From assembly GCA_963677485.1 (NCBI GenBank), contig OY781964.1, forward strand, positions 2,016,001 to 2,080,000: a DNA stretch of 64,000 nucleotides, given 5' to 3'. This DNA is from Armatimonadota bacterium (GTDB lineage Bacteria > Armatimonadota > HRBIN16). Both the position numbers and the translations under genes were made by a program. The notes beneath the pieces are model-generated. The model did no database searches. It was not told the origin of the DNA and saw only the letters and a list, made by a program, of their open reading frames with translations. Of the stretch, positions 12,161 through 17,520 are shown in pieces. Each line of letters opens with the position of its first letter. Position 1 is the stretch's first letter.

Positions 12161-12319
12161 GGTGTTCCTCCAAGGTGGCTGAGTGTGGTTCTTTGGTTTA
12201 CTATACGCCAATGAGGGGGCGGATACCTGCGTGAGGCGGGTTATGGTAATAGATGGCCGGTCGATACGTTAGCTCAAGGTATAATAGAGCTGGATCGGGC
12301 GAACCCATTGGATGTTAGA

Positions 12320-12520
12320 ATGAAGGAACTGTTTTTCGATACGCGCGAGGACAAGGTCGATGGCGGGTACACCGCGTCGGCAATCGGCCTTGGGATACAC
12401 ACCCAAGCTGAGACTCTTGAAGAGCTTCGAGCGAACATCCTTGATGCGGTGGACTGCTACTTTGACGAACCCTGCGAAGCGCCCGCAAGGATTGTAGTTG
12501 TTGGTAGCGTGATTTTGTAG
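12320..12520 (+). CDS. small HicB-like antitoxin-fold protein
   Basis: DGGYTASA-IHTQAETLEELRANILDAVDCYF resembles the HicB N-terminal fold. Confidence 0.7.
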   Translation: MKELFFDTREDKVDGGYTASAIGLGIHTQAETLEELRANILDAVDCYFDEPCEAPARIVVVGSVIL

Positions 12521-12599
12521 GGTTTTGTGGACGGATCGAGGATCGAAAGGCACAGAGTCTATCCCCAATCTGCGCCATCTGCGTAATCTGTGGATTGTA

Positions 12600-12911
12600 A
12601 CTCCCTGTCCACGCCAATTGTCGGCTGCACTCAAATCGGATGATGGCATCGACCGACTTGATGCGATTGCCATGATGCTTATTGTGCTTGGGGAGAGTGT
12701 GAAGAACCTGGATAAGGCTACCGATGGCACGCTATTGCCCCAATTCCCAGAAGTGGACTGGAAAGGGGCCAAGGGTGTAAGGGATATCATGAGTCATCAC
12801 TATGTGGATATAGACGCCGAAGTGATTTTCGATATCTGCCAGACTTTCATCCCTCCCCTGATCGCCACCATCGAAAAAATGCGGCAAGAGATAGTCAATG
12901 GCACTGTATAA
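12600..12911 (+). pseudogene. 5'-truncated HEPN/DUF86 (HepT-like) ribonuclease
   Basis: LGESVKNL, PEVDWKGAKGVRDIMSHHY (RX4HXY); N-terminus replaced by a dispersed repeat at about 12566-12615. Confidence 0.75.
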
Positions 12912-12976
12912 ACCGGTAATACATTGTTTCGCAGCAGATGTGTCGAGGCGCGGTTGCCGCGCCTAAGGGTCGGGAT

Positions 12977-13088
12977 GGGTCGGGAAACCCGACCCCTACA
13001 TGCTTGCCAGACCATCCAGGACACTACCAATGCGGACGCTATGTGTTGAAAAAACCCGCGGAGGGAGGGCGATTCGCGAATCGCCCCT
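12977..13088. repeat. REP-like palindromes (gggtcgggaaacccgacccctac; agggcgattcgcgaatcgcccct)
   Basis: Short GC-rich palindromes ending in CCCCTAC; the second is cut by IS110; relatives at 46401-46420, 54746-54764 and 59423-59446. Confidence 0.75.
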
Positions 13089-13102
13089 AGTACGCTATAT
13101 AT

Positions 13103-13295
13103 GGTGAGCTCCCCGGACACCAAAAGCAGTCGGGGAGCTAATCTCACCCCTTAGCTGGGGGTGAAGGAGAAGGATTGGATGCCGGAACCGCCCCTGGTGG
13201 AAAACACCGTGACGTAGATAGGCATCCTTCTCCCAATCAACCCATATCGAACAGTATCTTGGGAGAAAACCCCGTGTTCGCTAGGCTGATTTGGT
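13103..13295 (+). ncRNA. IS110 bridge RNA
   Basis: Two 5' hairpins; target loop with ACCGCCCCT (13187-13195) and GTAG (13214-13217); donor loop with ACAGTATCT (13251-13259) and CTAG (13281-13284); closing stems ggagaagg..atgcc/ggcatccttctcc and caatcaacc/ggttgattg; ends approximate. Confidence 0.88.
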
Positions 13296-13334
13296 TGATT
13301 GCACCATCAATCACTACCAACTGGAGATTACCAC

Positions 13335-14627
13335 ATGCACGAAGTTGAAGACAAAATCTACATCCATTATGTCGGGATCGACATCTCGAAATTGACGTTT
13401 GACGCGTCTGTATTAGGTTCATCGCACAAGCCGATAGACCATAAGGAGTTCAAGAACAACAAGGCCGGATACAAGGAGTTGTTGTCATGGGTGAAGAAGC
13501 TTACCCGAACTCCCGCCTTGTATGCGGCTGAAGCCACCGGGCCTTACAGCCGACCGCTGCTTGATTACCTCTACGAGCACCAGCACGATGCTGTCCAACT
13601 GGAGCCAAAACGGGTTCTCTATCACCGCAAAGCCAAAGGCTGGGAACAAAAGACGGACTGCTCTGACAGCGTGCTAATCGCTGACTATGTGAAAAGTCAC
13701 AATGTCTCACTCTATGTCCCTCGTCTAGCATGCTATGATGCGCTTATTGGTTACACCAATGACCGCCGTATGCTGGTGCAACACAGACAGGCGATCGCCC
13801 AGCGCCAAAGCTGTCGGCTTACGCGGAGCACAGTGCTGGACGAGATGATCGCTTTTCATGACATGGGCATCAAAAAGCTTGATGTTCAGATCAAAGAGCT
13901 TGTGATGAGTTCACCGCAGATGACCGAAGATATGGCTCTGCTGAAGAGCATTCCGGGTATCGGCGACGTCACAGCAAGCTATTTCCTTGCGAAAATCGGT
14001 GATGCTAAACGATTTGAAACATCGAAAGCGGTCGCGCGCTATTTCGGAATGAACCCCTGCCCGCAACGGTCAGGAAGCTGCAAGACATACGACGGCTCCA
14101 TATCCAAGATGGGTGACCGATATATGCGGACATTACTCTACTGTGGATCGAGCACTGTGGTGAAGATGGTCAACGGTAAGTCGAAAAAGCTTGGCCAGAG
14201 CATGCACGACTTCGTGAAGGAACTGCAGCATCCGAATTTGGTAAAGAATCCCAATAAGAAACCGAAGTCCAAGCGAGTTGTCCGGTGCGCAATCATGCGC
14301 AAGCAGCTGGTGCTCATGTGGTCGGTATTAATCAGCCGTCAGCCATATGATCCAAACTTCGGCATCGAACAAGCTTCAAATGCGGCCAACCAGCAACCGC
14401 TGACCGACGCGAACGGACATGTCCAGGATCGTGCCGGAGCGGCCCATGATATAGCCGGTGTAGGCAATGATCCTGGGCTGGACGTGAGCGTTCCAAGACG
14501 GGGATGCGTGGATGGAAATCCCACCAATGAGCCCACTCCTGCCGGCGGTGGTCGGCCCGCATCCCGAAACCGGCCATCGCGCAGTCGGGTGGGCAACAAA
14601 CCGAGGGTTCTGACACCAGTATCCTAG
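13335..14627 (+). CDS. IS110 family recombinase/transposase
   Basis: RuvC-like DEDD motifs (VGID, AEATG, KTDCSD), SIPGIG, catalytic Ser in QRSGS; ATG 13335 after GGAG. Confidence 0.95.
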   Translation: MHEVEDKIYIHYVGIDISKLTFDASVLGSSHKPIDHKEFKNNKAGYKELLSWVKKLTRTPALYAAEATGPYSRPLLDYLYEHQHDAVQLEPKRVLYHRKAKGWEQKTDCSDSVLIADYVKSHNVSLYVPRLACYDALIGYTNDRRMLVQHRQAIAQRQSCRLTRSTVLDEMIAFHDMGIKKLDVQIKELVMSSPQMTEDMALLKSIPGIGDVTASYFLAKIGDAKRFETSKAVARYFGMNPCPQRSGSCKTYDGSISKMGDRYMRTLLYCGSSTVVKMVNGKSKKLGQSMHDFVKELQHPNLVKNPNKKPKSKRVVRCAIMRKQLVLMWSVLISRQPYDPNFGIEQASNAANQQPLTDANGHVQDRAGAAHDIAGVGNDPGLDVSVPRRGCVDGNPTNEPTPAGGGRPASRNRPSRSRVGNKPRVLTPVS

Positions 14628-14932
14628 CTGCGGCAGTCTGCCGATAGCACGCATCGAAGCATAACGATATCTTTCGAAGCCACGAAGATGTCGCACGTCC
14701 GTTCGCGACTCCGAGCGTCATGTGAGGTGCTACGGACCAACTGATGCCATCTGAGCCTGTTTCTGTCGCGGATCCAGGTTTGGTCTATATGCCACAAACA
14801 TCACATTAACGTTATTCTACGTGGTCTAGAGCCAGTGTCTGATATTCAGGTCCAAATCCCCAGATTTGCCCCTGGGGACTTGACAAAAGCCACAGTATCT
14901 ACAGGCCAATACGTGAACCCGCGGCCAATTAG

Positions 14933-16890
14933 CCCAACTTCCGCAGTTAATCGGCTTGAATGAATTTCAAGCCGATTTTTCGTGCTCAGCATGTTGACAT
15001 CATAGACAGGTTCGTGCTCAAAACATTCAATAATGCTCTGTAGTGTAGAAAATGAGTATGAAAATATCGTGTATATTCAGGGTATGTATTTACGAAAATG
15101 CCGACAAAACAAAGGTGGCAGGGAATACTGCTATTGGCAGCTCGTTGAGTCATATCGGCCAGAACGTGGCGCGCGTCAACGTGTTGTAGCCAACCTGGGC
15201 GAACTCGATCTACCCAGCCAAAAAGGCATGAGGCAATTCGCCACAGGCCAACAAACGCGGGTGTATCAAACCAGTCTGCTCGAGGAGAACTCACCACCTC
15301 AATGGGTAGTTGTGGATACCAGCAGTGTCACAGTAGACCGTGTGAAACAATATGGTGGGGCCTGGCTTTGTATTCAAGTCATCGACAGATTGCATCTCAG
15401 TGGCTTCCTAAAAGAGGTGATGCCCAGAGGCCGTGAATCCGTTCCCTGGCATTCTATGGCCTTAGTACTGGTGATATCAAGACTGCTCGAACCCTCCAGT
15501 GAACTGCAGATCGCCCAACATTTGTTTGAACGCACCTCATTAAGCGACCTGCTCGGTATTCCTAAGCACAAATTGAACGATGACCGGTTATACCGCGCAC
15601 TGGATGCGTTGTTGCCGCATAAGCAGGCCCTTGAGAGACACCTCAAAAACCGTCTTGGCGAATTGTTCCAGATTGAATACGACCTTCTTCTCTATGATGT
15701 CACCAGCACCTATTTCGAAGGACAAGCTAATCGTAACGAACAAGCCAAACGCGGCTATTCGCGCGATCACCGCGGTGACTGCAAGCAAGTCTGCATTGCA
15801 CTAGTGGTGTCAAAGTGTGGGATGCCCTTTGCCTATGAGCTTTTCGACGGTAACCGACACGACTCGACAACAGTTCAAGAGATCATACTCAGTATTGAAG
15901 CAAAATTCGGCTCAGCCGACCGTGTCTGGGTCATGGATCGCGGCATGACAAGCGAGGATAACATCGAGTTCCTCAAGACCCGCGGTCAGCACTACATCAT
16001 AGGTACACCGAAATCGTGCTTGAAGCAATATGAACAGCAGTTACTTGAAGGTAACTGGGATGTGGTGCATGAAGGGCTGGAAGTGAAACTGTGCCCCACT
16101 CCTGATGGTCAAGAGACATTTGTTTTGTGTAGGAGTGCCAATCGGCATGAAAAAGAGAAGGCGATGCATGACAGGTTTGCAGCATGTTATGAAGAGGGCT
16201 TAGAGAAGATAGCTAAAAACTGCTTGAATCGTCGGCAAGACGTCGTCACCACTGCACAGAGAGTGGGCAGATTGAAACAACAATACAGCCGGGCATCTGG
16301 CCTGTTTGACGTAAAGATCACCGAGTTAGATGGGAGAGCACAGATATCCTGGACAAAGCTCGAAGAATGGAGCAGCTGGGCCACGTTAAGTGAAGGCTGT
16401 TACATACTACGCAGCAATATGACTTCCTGGAGTGCCAACGACTTATGGAAAGCGTACATACAGCTGACACAGGCAGAGGCGGCATTCAGAATTCATAAAA
16501 GTGACCTCGCGATCAGACCAATCTGGCACCAGAAGACGGAGCGTGTTCATGCGCACATACTGGTCTGTTTCATGGCATTTGTTCTGTGGAAAACGCTGGA
16601 GCAAATGTGTGTGCAGTCTGGATTAGGTGACAGCCCTCGCATTGTGCTAGACGAACTAAGCCAGATATATACAGTCGATGTGTGGATGGCTACCAAAAAC
16701 GGCCAAAAGATACGTCATCGGACGATCTCAGAACCGACCAAACACCAGCTCATTCTTTTACAAAGGCTCGGACTTTACCTTCCAAGATCACCATTAACCT
16801 GCAGAAATGTAGTGTAGAAAATAAGCTTTCATTTGCGTGCAGTTGAGCACAAACTGCACATCATAAAAACGACAAACTGCGGAAGTTGGG
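14933..16890 (+). mobile_element. IS1634 family insertion sequence
   Basis: Terminal IRs CCCAACTTCCGCAGTT / AACTGCGGAAGTTGGG, flanked by a TTAG direct repeat (14929-14932, 16891-16894). Confidence 0.9.
15084..16817 (+). CDS. IS1634 family DDE transposase
   Basis: YWQLVESYR..RQRVVANLG, YDVTSTYFEG, RGYSRDHR, VMDRGM, AEAAFRIHKSDL..RPIWH motifs. Confidence 0.95.
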   Translation: MYLRKCRQNKGGREYCYWQLVESYRPERGARQRVVANLGELDLPSQKGMRQFATGQQTRVYQTSLLEENSPPQWVVVDTSSVTVDRVKQYGGAWLCIQVIDRLHLSGFLKEVMPRGRESVPWHSMALVLVISRLLEPSSELQIAQHLFERTSLSDLLGIPKHKLNDDRLYRALDALLPHKQALERHLKNRLGELFQIEYDLLLYDVTSTYFEGQANRNEQAKRGYSRDHRGDCKQVCIALVVSKCGMPFAYELFDGNRHDSTTVQEIILSIEAKFGSADRVWVMDRGMTSEDNIEFLKTRGQHYIIGTPKSCLKQYEQQLLEGNWDVVHEGLEVKLCPTPDGQETFVLCRSANRHEKEKAMHDRFAACYEEGLEKIAKNCLNRRQDVVTTAQRVGRLKQQYSRASGLFDVKITELDGRAQISWTKLEEWSSWATLSEGCYILRSNMTSWSANDLWKAYIQLTQAEAAFRIHKSDLAIRPIWHQKTERVHAHILVCFMAFVLWKTLEQMCVQSGLGDSPRIVLDELSQIYTVDVWMATKNGQKIRHRTISEPTKHQLILLQRLGLYLPRSPLTCRNVV

Positions 16891-16904: not shown

Positions 16905-17520
16905 CGGGCTGTCCGCCAGACCGCGCCGGAGATGGGCTGCACAGCAATCGCAAGCGTGCTGAGTAACCGGCGCGGTCAAATACCTAATCTGTGTCATCTG
17001 CGCCATCTGTGGATCGCAACTCGCTGTCTGTGCAAATCGCCATCTGCCTTGGAAAAAGACCGGCGCGGTCTATAGCCATCTGTAACCGCCGGTGTACCGA
17101 CAGACCGCCCCGGACATAGCCAATGGGGCTTCGGTGGCCGCCTCTCTTGCGCCGGCCGCTAATGATCAGCCGTGCGGTGAAGGAACCCGCGGCAAGATGG
17201 CTCACGAGATTTGGCTATCCGCCAGACCGCGCCGGAGATGGGCTGCACAGCAATCGCAAGCGTGCTGAGAAACCGGCGCGGTCAAATACCCAATCTGCGT
17301 CATCTGCGCCATCTGTGGATCGCAACTCCCTGTCCGTGGCAATCGCCATCCGCCTTGGAAAAAGACCGGCGCGGTCCTGGGCCTTCTGCAGCCGCTAGCG
17401 TACTGACAGACCGCCCCGGACATAGCCAATCGAGACGCTACGCGGCCAAACACCCTTCGCGTCTTCGCGTCTTCGCGTGACATTTCCCCTCCGCGCCCTC
17501 CGCGTCTCCGCGTGAGACAT
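16905..17520. repeat. tandemly duplicated repeat mosaic (about 16910-17125 vs 17218-17430)
   Basis: Two near-identical blocks starting tccgccagaccgcgccggagatgggctgcacagc, each containing a family B hairpin. Confidence 0.85.

What the first reader, a model, noticed from the sequence alone, without database searches (positions are those of the whole stretch)
13089..14900. Complete IS110 bridge-recombination system with all four guide segments readable
Seen: the rejoined element ends give donor ACAGTAT-CT-AGTAC, and the restored flanks give target ATCGCCC-CT-ACAGG. The left non-coding end holds two stem-enclosed internal loops. Loop 1 has ACCGCCCCT (8/9 match to left target plus core) and GTAG (complement of CTAC). 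Loop 2 has ACAGTATCT (9/9 match to left donor plus core) and CTAG (complement of CTAG). Each loop has a central hairpin with a GAAAA-containing loop. The recombinase retains DEDD and the SG serine. Known: this is the IS621 bridge RNA architecture, which also uses a CT core and an ACAGTAT left donor and inserts in REPs. Inference: a probably active, naturally retargeted programmable recombinase from a distant phylum, with two 5' hairpins ahead of the target loop.
Basis: partly seen in the sequence, partly recalled or inferred. Interest (0 to 1): 0.85.

Follow-up and report, generated by a model that had tools for sequence, protein, structure and literature searches.

The report
IS110 bridge-RNA insertion sequence, 12 copies
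This is an intact mobile element of the known IS110 "bridge RNA" type, whose small guide RNA spells out both its own ends and the repeated genomic site it inserts into; it is a clean natural example, not a new kind of system.

Summary
Window 13089-14900 is a 1812-bp IS110-group insertion sequence bounded by CT core dinucleotides, with 12 near-identical copies in this genome.

- **Guide RNA:** the left end folds into two 5' hairpins plus two internal-loop stem-loops. A covariance model built from this RNA and two relatives finds the experimentally validated E. coli IS621 bridge RNA (E 1.9e-4).
- **Target guide:** ACCGCCCCU plus GUAG matches the consensus of the 12 insertion sites, ACCGCCC-CT-AC. 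Site occupancy falls with mismatches: 6/9 perfect sites are filled against 2/24, 2/46 and 1/7 for one-mismatch sites.
- **Donor guide:** ACAGUAUCU matches the element's right end 9/9. The right donor guide pairs in the discontiguous IS621 pattern, and handshake guides are also readable.
- **Natural covariation:** two related elements carry different target guides that match their own, different targets.
- **Recombinase:** it keeps D16, E66, D108, D111 and S246-G247, and passes NCBIfam's "IS110 family RNA-guided transposase" cut-off.

Activity is inferred, not shown: no circle junction appeared in assembled contigs. "Distant phylum" could not be checked. Thousands of such systems are already predicted, so this is a new member of a known kind. 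Its clade adds a second 5' hairpin and a conserved C-terminal tail of about 100 aa.

The parts
13067..13086 (+). REP-like perfect palindrome (GGGCGATTCG/CGAATCGCCC). Its 3' arm is the left target (LT, 13080-13086, ATCGCCC).
   Evidence: Read directly. The same or a one-base variant palindrome precedes 10 of the 12 copies, and the other 2 follow different GC-rich palindromes. Many empty copies exist in the genome.
13087..13088 (+). Left copy of the CT core dinucleotide
   Evidence: CT flanks all 12 of 12 copies on the left.
13089..14900 (+). The IS110-group insertion sequence (1812 bp, counted with its right-hand CT)
   Evidence: 12 copies with identical ends: 10 of 1812 bp and 2 of 1796 bp. 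Only 6 SNP sites plus one shared 16-bp deletion among them.
13091..13096 (+). Putative -10 hexamer (TACGCT) of the promoter that forms only at the circle junction
   Evidence: It sits 2 nt after the core, as do TATTAT in IS621 and TATGCT in element C and in element B (read). Only 3 of 6 positions match TATAAT. Inferred.
13107..13139 (+). 5' hairpin 1 of the bridge RNA (9-bp stem)
   Evidence: MFE fold. The equivalent hairpin in elements B and C has compensatory differences.
13144..13164 (+). 5' hairpin 2 of the bridge RNA (not described for IS621)
   Evidence: MFE fold. Present in B and C. PMC11208160 describes one 5' stem-loop in its consensus of 103 orthologues (passage).
13166..13233 (+). 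Target-binding loop stem-loop (outer stem 13166-74/13225-33; inner stem 13180-83/13221-24)
   Evidence: Covariation across 11 distinct sequences: helices 1-3 have 17 of 20 pairs with compensatory changes.
13187..13195 (+). Left target guide (LTG), ACCGCCCCU
   Evidence: Identical to LT plus core in 6 of 12 insertion sites, with one mismatch in the other 6; positions 3-9 are invariant in 12 of 12. Aligned to the IS621 LTG by the covariance model.
13212..13217 (+). Right target guide (RTG), GUAG at 13214-17, possibly extended to ACGUAG
   Evidence: Complementary to CT-AC, which is found at 11 of 12 sites. The extension is not reflected in the targets: G at RT position 3 in 5 of 12.
13218..13220 (+). 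Target-loop handshake guide, AUA
   Evidence: GUAGAUA is the exact complement of TAT-CT-AC, the right junction after insertion. The position is defined for IS621 in PMC11208158 (passages).
13234..13301 (+). Donor-binding loop stem-loop (outer stem 13234-42/13293-301)
   Evidence: Helices 4, 5 and 7 have 10 of 14 pairs with compensatory changes.
13251..13259 (+). Left donor guide (LDG), ACAGUAUCU
   Evidence: 9 of 9 identical to the element's right end plus core, 14892-14900.
13274..13284 (+). Right donor guide (RDG), GUG-UU-CGCUAG; the contiguous part CUAG is 13281-84
   Evidence: Read in the register of element B: 8 of 9 pairs with CT-AGTACGC (2 of them G-U/G-T wobbles, 1 mismatch) around a UU bulge. 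Two changes are compensatory relative to B. PMC11208160 reports a discontiguous pattern of nine RNA bases on seven donor bases (passage).
13285..13286 (+). Donor-loop handshake guide, GC
   Evidence: The first base G pairs with target C7; the second does not pair with C6 (read). Elements B and C likewise pair only at the first base, while IS621 adds a U-G wobble at the second.
13323..13327 (+). Ribosome-binding site GGAGA, 7 nt before the ATG
   Evidence: Read directly.
13335..14627 (+). Recombinase gene, 430 aa: RuvC-like DEDD domain, coiled coil, Tnp domain with S246-G247, then a clade-specific tail (about residues 342-430)
   Evidence: PF01548 and PF02371. NF033542 at 180.6 bits against a cut-off of 140. 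IS621 8wt6 at E 2.5e-28. Homologues start at the same Met. Tail pLDDT 21-33.
14628..14900 (+). Right non-coding end (273 bp); only the last 50 nt or so are conserved with elements B and C
   Evidence: The fold is not remarkable (z -1.96).
14880..14885 (+). -35 hexamer TTGACA, 15 nt before the end of the element
   Evidence: Same distance in IS621 (TTGCAG) and element C and in element B (read). It gives a 17-nt spacer across the joined ends. No +-strand promoter-like site is found in the integrated state.
14892..14900 (+). Left donor (ACAGTAT) plus right copy of the CT core
   Evidence: Identical in B, C and IS621.
14901..14902 (+). Right target (AC)
   Evidence: AC at 11 of 12 sites and AT at 1.

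Best explanation
Window 13089-14900 is an intact IS110-group insertion sequence that moves by bridge-RNA-guided recombination, as IS621 does.

**Proposed cycle.** On excision the ends join at the CT core. This places TTGACA of the right end 17 nt upstream of TACGCT in the left end, and that promoter transcribes a bridge RNA of about 200 nt (inferred). The RNA has two 5' hairpins, a target-binding loop and a donor-binding loop.

**Guides.**
[quoted passage not shown] - In the donor loop, ACAGUAUCU pairs with the joined right end. GUG..CGCUAG pairs discontiguously with CT-AGTACGC of the left end.
- AUA and G next to the right-hand guides act as handshake guides after strand exchange.

**Catalysis.** The 430-aa recombinase (D16, E66, D108, D111 and S246-G247) would cut and exchange strands at the CT core. 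This inserts the circle, always in one orientation, at the 3' foot of a REP-like palindrome.

**What is shown and what is inferred.** Shown: element borders, copy number, target consensus, guide matches, RNA homology to IS621, catalytic residues. Inferred: transcription, the circle, the chemistry, and present-day activity.
For: 1. **Copies and borders.** 12 copies with identical ends, each bounded by CT with no other duplication. All 12 have the left end next to the palindrome.
2. **Targets.** LT is ACCGCCC in 6, ATCGCCC in 3, CCCGCCC in 2 and AACGCCC in 1. RT is AC in 11 of 12. So the LTG equals the consensus 9/9.
3. **Occupancy tracks the guide match.** Counting sites that end in CT-AC:
 - ACCGCCC 6 of 9
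 - ATCGCCC 2 of 24
 - CCCGCCC 2 of 46
 - AACGCCC 1 of 7
 - all other NNCGCCC sites 0 of 153
 Fisher p 0.0017 for perfect against ATC sites, and 1.5e-7 for perfect against all others.
4. **Donor guide.** LDG matches LD plus core 9/9.
5. **Natural covariation.**
 - Element B (same genome, 45% protein identity) has LTG CGCGCCCCU and lies at CGCGCCC-CT (9/9 for one copy, 7/9 for the other).
 - Element C (congeneric genome G001, 9 copies, 42% identity) has LTG GUCAUCCCU and lies at GTCATCC-CT (9/9 in 6 of 9 copies, 8/9 in 3).
 - IS621 has AUCGGGCCU at ATCAGGC-CT (8/9).
 - This element's LTG matches the other three targets only 7/9, 5/9 and 5/9.
6. **RNA homology.** Model R1, built from the cores of A, B and C, finds the IS621 bridge RNA at full length in L139 543-693, just upstream of the annotated IS621 gene (27.1 bits, E 1.9e-4 in 241 kb). 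It also finds 8 further left ends of distant IS110 loci.
7. **Structure covariation.** On that alignment 28 of 38 pairs show compensatory change and 88.8% of cells pair, against 38-46% when partners are slid. 0 of 500 shuffles reach the observed values.
8. **Protein.** PF01548 and PF02371. NF033542 above its cut-off. IS621 structure chain at E 2.5e-28, with D11/E60/D102/D105/S241-G242 aligned to D16/E66/D108/D111/S246-G247, all invariant in 8 homologues.
9. **Promoter geometry.** The junction geometry is shared with IS621 and C and B (read).
10. **Recent spread.** Only 6 SNP sites among the 12 copies and none in the left end. In two runs the element contig has 8-13 times the depth of its flanks.
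Against: - No circle junction or excision joint appeared in the 4 runs laid. They are assembled contigs only, which cannot show absence.
- There is no RNA evidence for this exact element.
- The junction -10 (TACGCT) matches TATAAT at only 3 of 6 positions and would fail the scan tool's own criterion.
- The RDG has only 4 contiguous pairs; the rest needs a bulge, two wobbles and one mismatch.
- The donor-loop handshake guide pairs at 1 of 2 positions.
- The possible RTG extension (ACGUAG) is not mirrored in the targets.
- One perfect REP-context site is still empty.
- Two of the 12 copies carry a frameshifting 16-bp deletion.
- Rfam 15 gave no match, so RNA family membership rests on my own model.
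- The alignment used for pair counts was fitted to that model.
Confidence: 0.9

Rival explanations
1. Target choice has two layers. The bridge RNA reads ACCGCCC-CT-AC, and the recombinase, or the complex, also needs the GC-rich hairpin formed by the REP-like palindrome just 5' of the core. This was proposed for ISPpu10. It complements the best explanation and does not replace it.
For: All 12 of 12 insertions lie at the 3' foot of a palindrome: 10 at the GGGCG.TTCGCGAA.CGCCC family and 2 at other GC-rich palindromes. Of the 3 empty perfect 11-mers, one has no palindrome and one an imperfect one. The ISPpu10 preprint 10.64898/2026.03.19.712850 reports such a stem-loop gate (abstract only).
Against: In this genome the target word occurs almost only inside such palindromes, so sequence and structure are confounded. 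One perfect palindromic site is still empty. Occupancy already follows the guide match within the palindrome family (6/9 against 2/24).
Confidence: 0.35
2. The element is a recent but now silent fossil. The copies record a past burst, and nothing moves today.
For: No circle or excision joint in contigs of 4 runs. The junction -10 is weak. Two copies are frameshifted. Runs X1 and X3 show identical flanks, so no insertion polymorphism was seen.
Against: 10 of 12 copies have an intact 430-aa frame, 7 of them identical to the window's and 3 scoring slightly lower, with all catalytic residues. The left end has no differences across the 12 copies. The same 16-bp deletion sits at two different sites, which is most simply explained by a defective copy having moved with help in trans. 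Contigs cannot reveal rare circles.
Confidence: 0.12
3. The loop-to-site matches are coincidence, and the recombinase finds REP-like sites by protein-DNA recognition alone.
For: Classical view of IS110-family targeting of REPs before 2024 (Tobes and Pareja 2006, seen only as an entry in the reference list of PMC11208160).
Against: - Two exact 9-mers each fall in the predicted loop position, with window-wide expectations of 0.72 and 0.43.
- Three further elements have their own guides matching their own targets.
- The RNA is homologous to the tested IS621 bridge RNA.
Confidence: 0.01

Closest known systems
IS621 of Escherichia coli (bridge recombinase; PDB 8wt6; PMC11208160, PMC11208158)
   Same: - CT core and left donor ACAGTAT.
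- Bridge RNA in the left end, with the target loop before the donor loop.
- 9-nt left guides in the sense of the top strand.
- GUAG right target guide reading CT-AC, and a discontiguous right donor guide.
- AU(A) handshake guide.
- -35 box 15 nt before the element end and -10 box 2 nt after the core.
- REP-type palindromic target.
- DEDD plus Ser-Gly catalytic residues.

   Different: - Only about 28% protein identity.
- 430 aa against 326 aa, because of a C-terminal tail.
- Element of 1812 bp against 1279 bp.
- Left end 246 nt against 191 nt, with a second 5' hairpin.
- Right non-coding end 273 nt against 107 nt.
- Right donor AGTACGC, not TGTAT...
- LTG ACCGCCCCU, not AUCGGGCCU.
- LDG ends in U (full core match), where IS621 has A.
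ISCro4 transposase (PDB 9t56)
   Same: Same family and domain order; aligned over residues 10-277 at E 5e-26.
Elements B (same genome) and C (congeneric genome G001), with five metagenomic proteins P0001-P0005
   Same: Same clade: two 5' hairpins, a left end of about 250 nt, a conserved C-terminal tail motif, the same -35 box and left donor.
   Different: B and C are 42-45% identical to this protein and keep the IS621-type right donor TGTATGC. Their LTGs and targets differ from this element's. P0001-P0005 are 61-95% identical, but their DNA could not be fetched.
ISPpu10 and ISPpu9 of Pseudomonas putida (IS110 family, REP or stem-loop targets)
   Same: IS110-family elements inserting next to a conserved GC-rich stem-loop or REP (abstract of 10.64898/2026.03.19.712850; abstract start of PMC12288879 in the listing).
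   Different: No sequence comparison was made here. ISPpu9 is reported to carry a small RNA gene downstream of the transposase. No comparable conserved feature was seen in this right end.

Membership tests
IS110 family, IS110 group (bridge recombinase plus bridge RNA) | N-terminal RuvC-like DEDD domain (PF01548) with all four acidic residues | tested here: met
   PF01548 at E 1.8e-21. D16, E66, D108 and D111 align to IS621 D11, E60, D102 and D105 and are invariant in 8 homologues.
IS110 family, IS110 group (bridge recombinase plus bridge RNA) | C-terminal Tnp domain (PF02371) with the catalytic serine followed by glycine | tested here: met
   PF02371 at E 4.4e-22. S246-G247 align to S241-G242.
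IS110 family, IS110 group (bridge recombinase plus bridge RNA) | Curated family score | tested here: met
   NF033542 'IS110 family RNA-guided transposase': 180.6 bits against a cut-off of 140.
IS110 family, IS110 group (bridge recombinase plus bridge RNA) | No terminal inverted repeats; a conserved core dinucleotide at both junctions and no longer target duplication | tested here: met
   CT on both sides of 12 of 12 copies, and different sequence beyond it. No dedicated inverted-repeat search of the ends was run; this rests on direct reading of the ends.
IS110 family, IS110 group (bridge recombinase plus bridge RNA) | Structured non-coding RNA in the left end: 5' stem-loop, then target-binding and donor-binding internal loops, homologous to the IS621 bridge RNA | tested here: met
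   Fold. Model R1 finds the IS621 RNA (E 1.9e-4). 28 of 38 pairs covary. Rfam 15 itself gave no match.
IS110 family, IS110 group (bridge recombinase plus bridge RNA) | Target loop complementary to both strands of the natural target, core included | tested here: met
   LTG 9/9 to the consensus of 12 sites; RTG GUAG to CT-AC in 11 of 12. Occupancy is graded by match.
IS110 family, IS110 group (bridge recombinase plus bridge RNA) | Donor loop complementary to both strands of the joined ends | tested here: met
   LDG 9/9. RDG has 4 contiguous pairs plus discontiguous pairing, 8 of 9 in the IS621/B register with 2 wobbles.
IS110 family, IS110 group (bridge recombinase plus bridge RNA) | Handshake guides next to the right-hand guides | tested here: inconclusive
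   Target-loop AUA pairs with donor TAT at 3 of 3 positions. Donor-loop GC pairs with target CC at 1 of 2 (against the definitions).
IS110 family, IS110 group (bridge recombinase plus bridge RNA) | Sigma-70 promoter rebuilt across the joined ends | tested here: inconclusive
   TTGACA, a 17-nt spacer, then TACGCT. The -35 is perfect and the geometry equals that of IS621. The -10 matches only 3 of 6.
IS110 family, IS110 group (bridge recombinase plus bridge RNA) | Circular intermediate, expressed RNA, RNA-dependent recombination | not testable with these tools
   Only assembled contigs were available. No circle joint appeared in 4 runs, which proves nothing.
IS1111 group of the IS110 family | Guide RNA encoded in the right end, downstream of the gene, with subterminal inverted repeats | tested here: not met
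   The bridge RNA lies in the left end. The right end is poorly conserved and folds unremarkably.

The most novel reading that the evidence does not exclude
This element, B, C and five metagenomic relatives form a deep branch of bridge recombinases, at most about 30% identical to IS621. The branch has three lineage-specific additions:
- a second 5' hairpin in the bridge RNA;
- a conserved tail of about 100 aa, predicted disordered, with a near-invariant motif (..NGHVQDRAGAA..AG.GND.G..GC.DG);
- a long right end.

The boldest reading is that the tail and the extra hairpin add a control layer absent from IS621. That layer might read the REP hairpin or recruit a host factor. The two frameshifted copies at different sites would then show that the system works in trans in its native host.
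Probability: 0.15. Interest if true: 0.5.

Novelty: new member of a known kind. Interest (0 to 1): 0.3.

Why it matters
It is a textbook-quality natural case of bridge-RNA targeting. All four guides and both handshake guides are readable. There are twelve insertion sites, and site occupancy falls as guide mismatches rise. Two sister elements show natural retargeting. The recombinase is far from IS621 (about 28% identity) yet uses the same core, left donor and promoter geometry. It could therefore serve as an orthogonal candidate for bridge editing, and as a test of what the clade's extra hairpin and C-terminal tail do. It does not change what is known about the mechanism.

Tried and rejected
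**Searches that found nothing useful**
- Rfam 15 scan of 12800-15200 at E up to 1: no match.
- Single-protein scans for related loci found nothing in genome contigs or metagenome contigs. With alignments, genome contigs gave only element C and relatives at 30% identity or less, and metagenome contigs gave only 26% relatives. The DNA of the close relatives P0001-P0005 was therefore never seen, and their guides and targets remain untested.
- Relatives search: the element was found only in G000. At E up to 1e-30, 3 of 41 genomes matched. At E up to 1e-40, 2 of 401 genomes of the phylum sample matched, both of genus g1. This means not found in those searched, not absent.

**Phylum**
- Two recalled PVC-type NCBIfam families (TIGR02600, TIGR02604) gave no match in the genome.
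- NCBIfam on ten window proteins gave only general functions.

**Sequencing runs**
- All runs are assembled contigs. No circle or excision joint was listed.
- In a digester metagenome (X6), a 1772-nt contig about 94% identical covers 13132-14902, with right flanks after CT-AC.
- Only 40 of 125 difference rows were shown, and 3 of those fall in 13132-13334. I cannot say the guide loops of that relative are unchanged.
- An RNA-library run (X15) holds contigs 93-94% identical over 13066-13454 and 13479-14139, in the integrated form. DNA carry-over is not excluded.
- Parts without cover, and small-share runs, are not used as evidence.

**Other checks**
- The tail alone (residues 330-430) has no NCBIfam or credible Pfam family.
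- AlphaFold2 on an 8-sequence alignment: mean pLDDT 59.9 and tail 21-33. This is too shallow to decide order against disorder, and no fold search was run.
- The right end folded at z -1.96, and only its last 50 nt or so are conserved. A second RNA there was rejected as unsupported.
- MAFFT misaligned IS621 and hairpin 1. I used a covariance model instead.

**Papers: what I saw**
- PMC11208160 and PMC11208158: passages only.
- 10.64898/2026.03.19.712850 and PMC13626964: abstract and outline.
- All other titles: search listing only.
- Supplements are closed. The orthologue tables of PMC11208160 may already list this element or its clade.
- Recalled and not taken from any call: the E. coli REP consensus, and the statement that ISfinder lists IS110 transposases of 300-460 aa.
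Full report
**Observation.** The left junction reads ATCGCCC-CT-AGTAC, with the core at 13087-88. The right junction reads ACAGTAT-CT-ACAGG, with the core at 14899-900. The element, counted with one CT, is 13089-14900 (1812 bp). The left non-coding end, 13089-13334, folds into two 5' hairpins (13107-39 and 13144-64) and two stem-enclosed internal loops. The fold has -88 kcal/mol and z -3.3, and 0 of 200 shuffles fold as well. The 140-nt two-loop core alone gives z -2.4. Loop 1 holds ACCGCCCCT (13187-95) and GTAG (13214-17). Loop 2 holds ACAGTATCT (13251-59) and CTAG (13281-84). Each loop has a central hairpin with a GAAAA-containing loop. In the whole window, both strands, ACCGCCCCT occurs only in loop 1 (expected 0.72). 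ACAGTATCT occurs only at the element's right end and in loop 2 (expected 0.43).

**Copies and targets.** The genome (G000, one 5.22-Mb contig) holds 12 copies with identical ends: 10 of 1812 bp and 2 of 1796 bp. All are flanked by CT on both sides, with unrelated sequence beyond, and all have the same orientation relative to an upstream palindrome. The seven bases before the core are ACCGCCC in 6 copies, ATCGCCC in 3, CCCGCCC in 2 and AACGCCC in 1. The two bases after the core are AC in 11 copies and AT in 1. The loop-1 word therefore equals the consensus target plus core 9/9. The window's copy is one of the one-mismatch sites. Positions 3-9 never vary.

Ten sites are the 3' foot of the palindrome GGGCG(G/A/T)TTC(G/T)CGAA(C/T/A)CGCCC, and two are the foot of other GC-rich palindromes.

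I counted unoccupied sites in the genome and compared them with occupied sites ending in CT-AC:

| Left target | Occupied of total |
|---|---|
| ACCGCCC (perfect) | 6 of 9 |
| ATCGCCC | 2 of 24 |
| CCCGCCC | 2 of 46 |
| AACGCCC | 1 of 7 |
| other NNCGCCC | 0 of 153 |

Fisher p is 0.0017 for perfect against ATC sites and 1.5e-7 for perfect against all others. Beyond AC the right flank shows no clear preference: G at the next position in 5 of 12. The possible extension of the right target guide (ACGUAG) is therefore not evidently used.

**RNA homology.** Rfam 15 gave no match. I built a covariance model (R1, 140 positions, 38 pairs) from the two-loop cores of this element and two relatives, B and C (described below). 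I searched 79 loci, 241 kb in all. Apart from its three sources, the model found the left end of an annotated E. coli IS621 copy at full model length (L139 543-693, 27.1 bits, E 1.9e-4). That hit lies directly upstream of the gene annotated 'IS110-like element IS621 family transposase'. The model also found 8 further left ends of distant IS110 loci. In the model alignment the IS621 words AUCGGGCCU, GUAGA, ACAGUAUCA and UUUGCAAGG fall on the same columns as this element's four guide words. On the 11 distinct sequences, 28 of 38 pairs show compensatory changes. 88.8% of cells pair, against 38-46% when partners are slid by 1-3 columns, and 0 of 500 shuffles reach the observed values. The caveat is that this alignment was fitted to the model. 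PMC11208160 (passages) defines the left guides as pairing with the bottom strand (9 nt, core included) and the right guides with the top strand (4-7 nt). That is the polarity seen here.

**Guides compared across four elements.**
- Element B lies in the same genome, with one intact-length copy and one copy interrupted by a 2.56-kb insert. It has the joined-end donor ACAGTAT-CT-TGTATGC. Its target guide CGCGCCCCU matches its site CGCGCCC-CT 9/9, and its second site 7/9.
- Element C has 9 copies in the congeneric genome G001. Its target guide is GUCAUCCCU. It lies at GTCATCC-CT-ACG, at the foot of a different palindrome, matching 9/9 in 6 of 9 copies and 8/9 in 3.
- The fetched IS621 copy has AUCGGGCCU and lies at ATCAGGC-CT-ACG (8/9). 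Its donor is ACAGTAT-CT-TGTAT. PMC11208160 gives ATCAGGCCTAC as the wild-type target.
- This element's target guide matches the targets of B, C and IS621 only 7/9, 5/9 and 5/9.
- All four share the left donor ACAGTAT. This element's left donor guide matches it and the core 9/9; B and IS621 end in A, and C has two mismatches.

The right donor guide of B (GCA-UU-UACAAG) pairs with CT-TGTATGC around a two-base bulge. This is the discontiguous pattern of nine RNA bases on seven donor bases reported for IS621. In the same register, this element's GUG-UU-CGCUAG pairs with CT-AGTACGC at 8 of 9 positions, with two wobbles and one mismatch.

The handshake guides defined in PMC11208158 (passages) can also be read. 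GUAG-AUA (13214-20) is the exact complement of TAT-CT-AC, the post-insertion right junction. The G after CUAG (13285) pairs with the last target base C7, while the next base does not pair with C6. Elements B and C likewise pair only at the first of the two positions. IS621 pairs at the first position, and its second position forms a U-G wobble.

**Protein.**
- The frame from the ATG at 13335, with GGAGA 7 nt upstream, gives 430 aa. Homologues start at the same Met.
- It has PF01548 and PF02371. It scores 180.6 bits on NF033542, 'IS110 family RNA-guided transposase', against a cut-off of 140.
- It matches the solved IS621 chain at E 2.5e-28 and ISCro4 at E 5e-26.
- Allowing for the two extra N-terminal residues of the PDB chain, IS621 D11, E60, D102, D105 and S241-G242 align with D16, E66, D108, D111 and S246-G247. 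All are invariant in eight homologues.
- Identity to IS621 is about 28%.
- Residues about 342-430 have no counterpart in IS621 (326 aa) and no family. They are predicted disordered on a shallow alignment (pLDDT 21-33).
- This tail is nevertheless kept in frame in relatives of 61-95% identity. It carries a near-invariant motif that also occurs in the B/C-type proteins.

**Promoter.** In the integrated state no promoter-like site lies on the + strand upstream of the RNA. TTGACA (14880-85) ends 15 nt before the element's last base, and TACGCT (13091-96) starts 2 nt after the core. Joined ends therefore give TTGACA, a 17-nt spacer, then TACGCT. IS621 (TTGCAG-17-TATTAT) and element C (TTGACA-17-TATGCT) have the same geometry. 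So does B, read. PMC11208160 reports such a promoter rebuilt on the circle. Here the -10 matches only 3 of 6, so the strength is uncertain.

**Activity.** The 12 copies differ at 6 SNP sites, none in the left end, plus a 16-bp deletion (window-equivalent 13773-88) shared by two copies at different sites. That deletion splits the frame. The other ten copies keep an open 430-aa frame; seven are identical to the window's protein and three score slightly lower. In two runs of coded organisms the element assembles as an 1820-nt contig at 117 and 154 depth, against 9 and 19-20 for the flanks, consistent with many copies. No circle or excision joint was listed, but only assembled contigs were available. 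A recent burst is well supported. Present activity is inferred.

**Distribution.**
- This element was found only in G000 among 41 relatives.
- At E up to 1e-40, related elements were found only in G000 and G001, of 401 genomes sampled from the phylum.
- Five full-length relatives (61-95% identity) exist in metagenome protein sets, but their DNA could not be fetched.
- One of them seems to be the 1772-nt contig, about 94% identical, in a digester metagenome. Its right flanks again follow CT-AC.
- The next relatives are at most about 30% identical.
- The genome's phylum is not named by any tool, so 'distant phylum' is untested.

**Verdict.** It is not new in kind. Standard annotation already names the protein an RNA-guided transposase. 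PMC11208160 reports thousands of predicted bridge RNA orthologues, and guide-target concordance across natural elements. I could not see its supplementary tables. What is specific to this clade is a second 5' hairpin, longer ends and a conserved C-terminal tail.

Noticed in passing
G000:C1 about 1296596-1298392 (L017, L053) and about 2667677-2672044 (L016, L056): A second IS110-group element, B, with 45% protein identity. It has its own bridge RNA (target guide CGCGCCCCU). One copy is interrupted by a 2.56-kb insert flanked by a 6-bp duplication (GCTCTA). Its frame is 387 aa, and the protein match reads through one TGA and one TAG.
   Followed up: partly
G001 loci L032, L035, L037, L039, L041, L043, L045, L047, L049: Nine copies of element C at the foot of a different palindrome (GATGACCACAAGGGTCATCC). 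Two copies lie only about 2.3 kb apart in the same orientation (L035/L037).
   Followed up: partly
G000:C1 about 1369196 (+) and 1872954 (-); window-equivalent 13773-13788: Two copies of the element share the same frameshifting 16-bp deletion but sit at different perfect target sites. This suggests either trans-mobilisation of a defective copy or gene conversion.
   Followed up: partly
window 14358-14627 (protein residues about 342-430): The C-terminal tail is conserved in frame down to 42% overall identity, with a near-invariant motif. It matches no family and is predicted disordered.
   Followed up: partly
window 12308-12911: A 70-aa ORF followed by a 128-aa HepT-like ribonuclease ORF (PF01934, E 4.3e-15). 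This looks like a toxin-antitoxin pair, just upstream of the REP-like cluster.
   Followed up: no
window 12930-13088: A cluster of REP-like palindromes. It includes GGGTCGGGAAACCCGACCC-CT-AC, an unoccupied site that differs from the target guide at two positions. Genome-wide there are 228 sites of the form NNCGCCCCTAC.
   Followed up: partly
window 15033-16817 and 16907-17376: An IS1634-family transposase gene (NF033559, E 6.5e-98) lies 132 bp downstream of the element and is single-copy in the genome. It is followed by short local repeats.
   Followed up: partly
run X15 (RNA library), laid on window 13066-14139: Contigs 93-94% identical to the element appear in a biofilm metatranscriptome and include the upstream REP flank. 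This may be read-through transcription of an integrated relative, or DNA carry-over.
   Followed up: no
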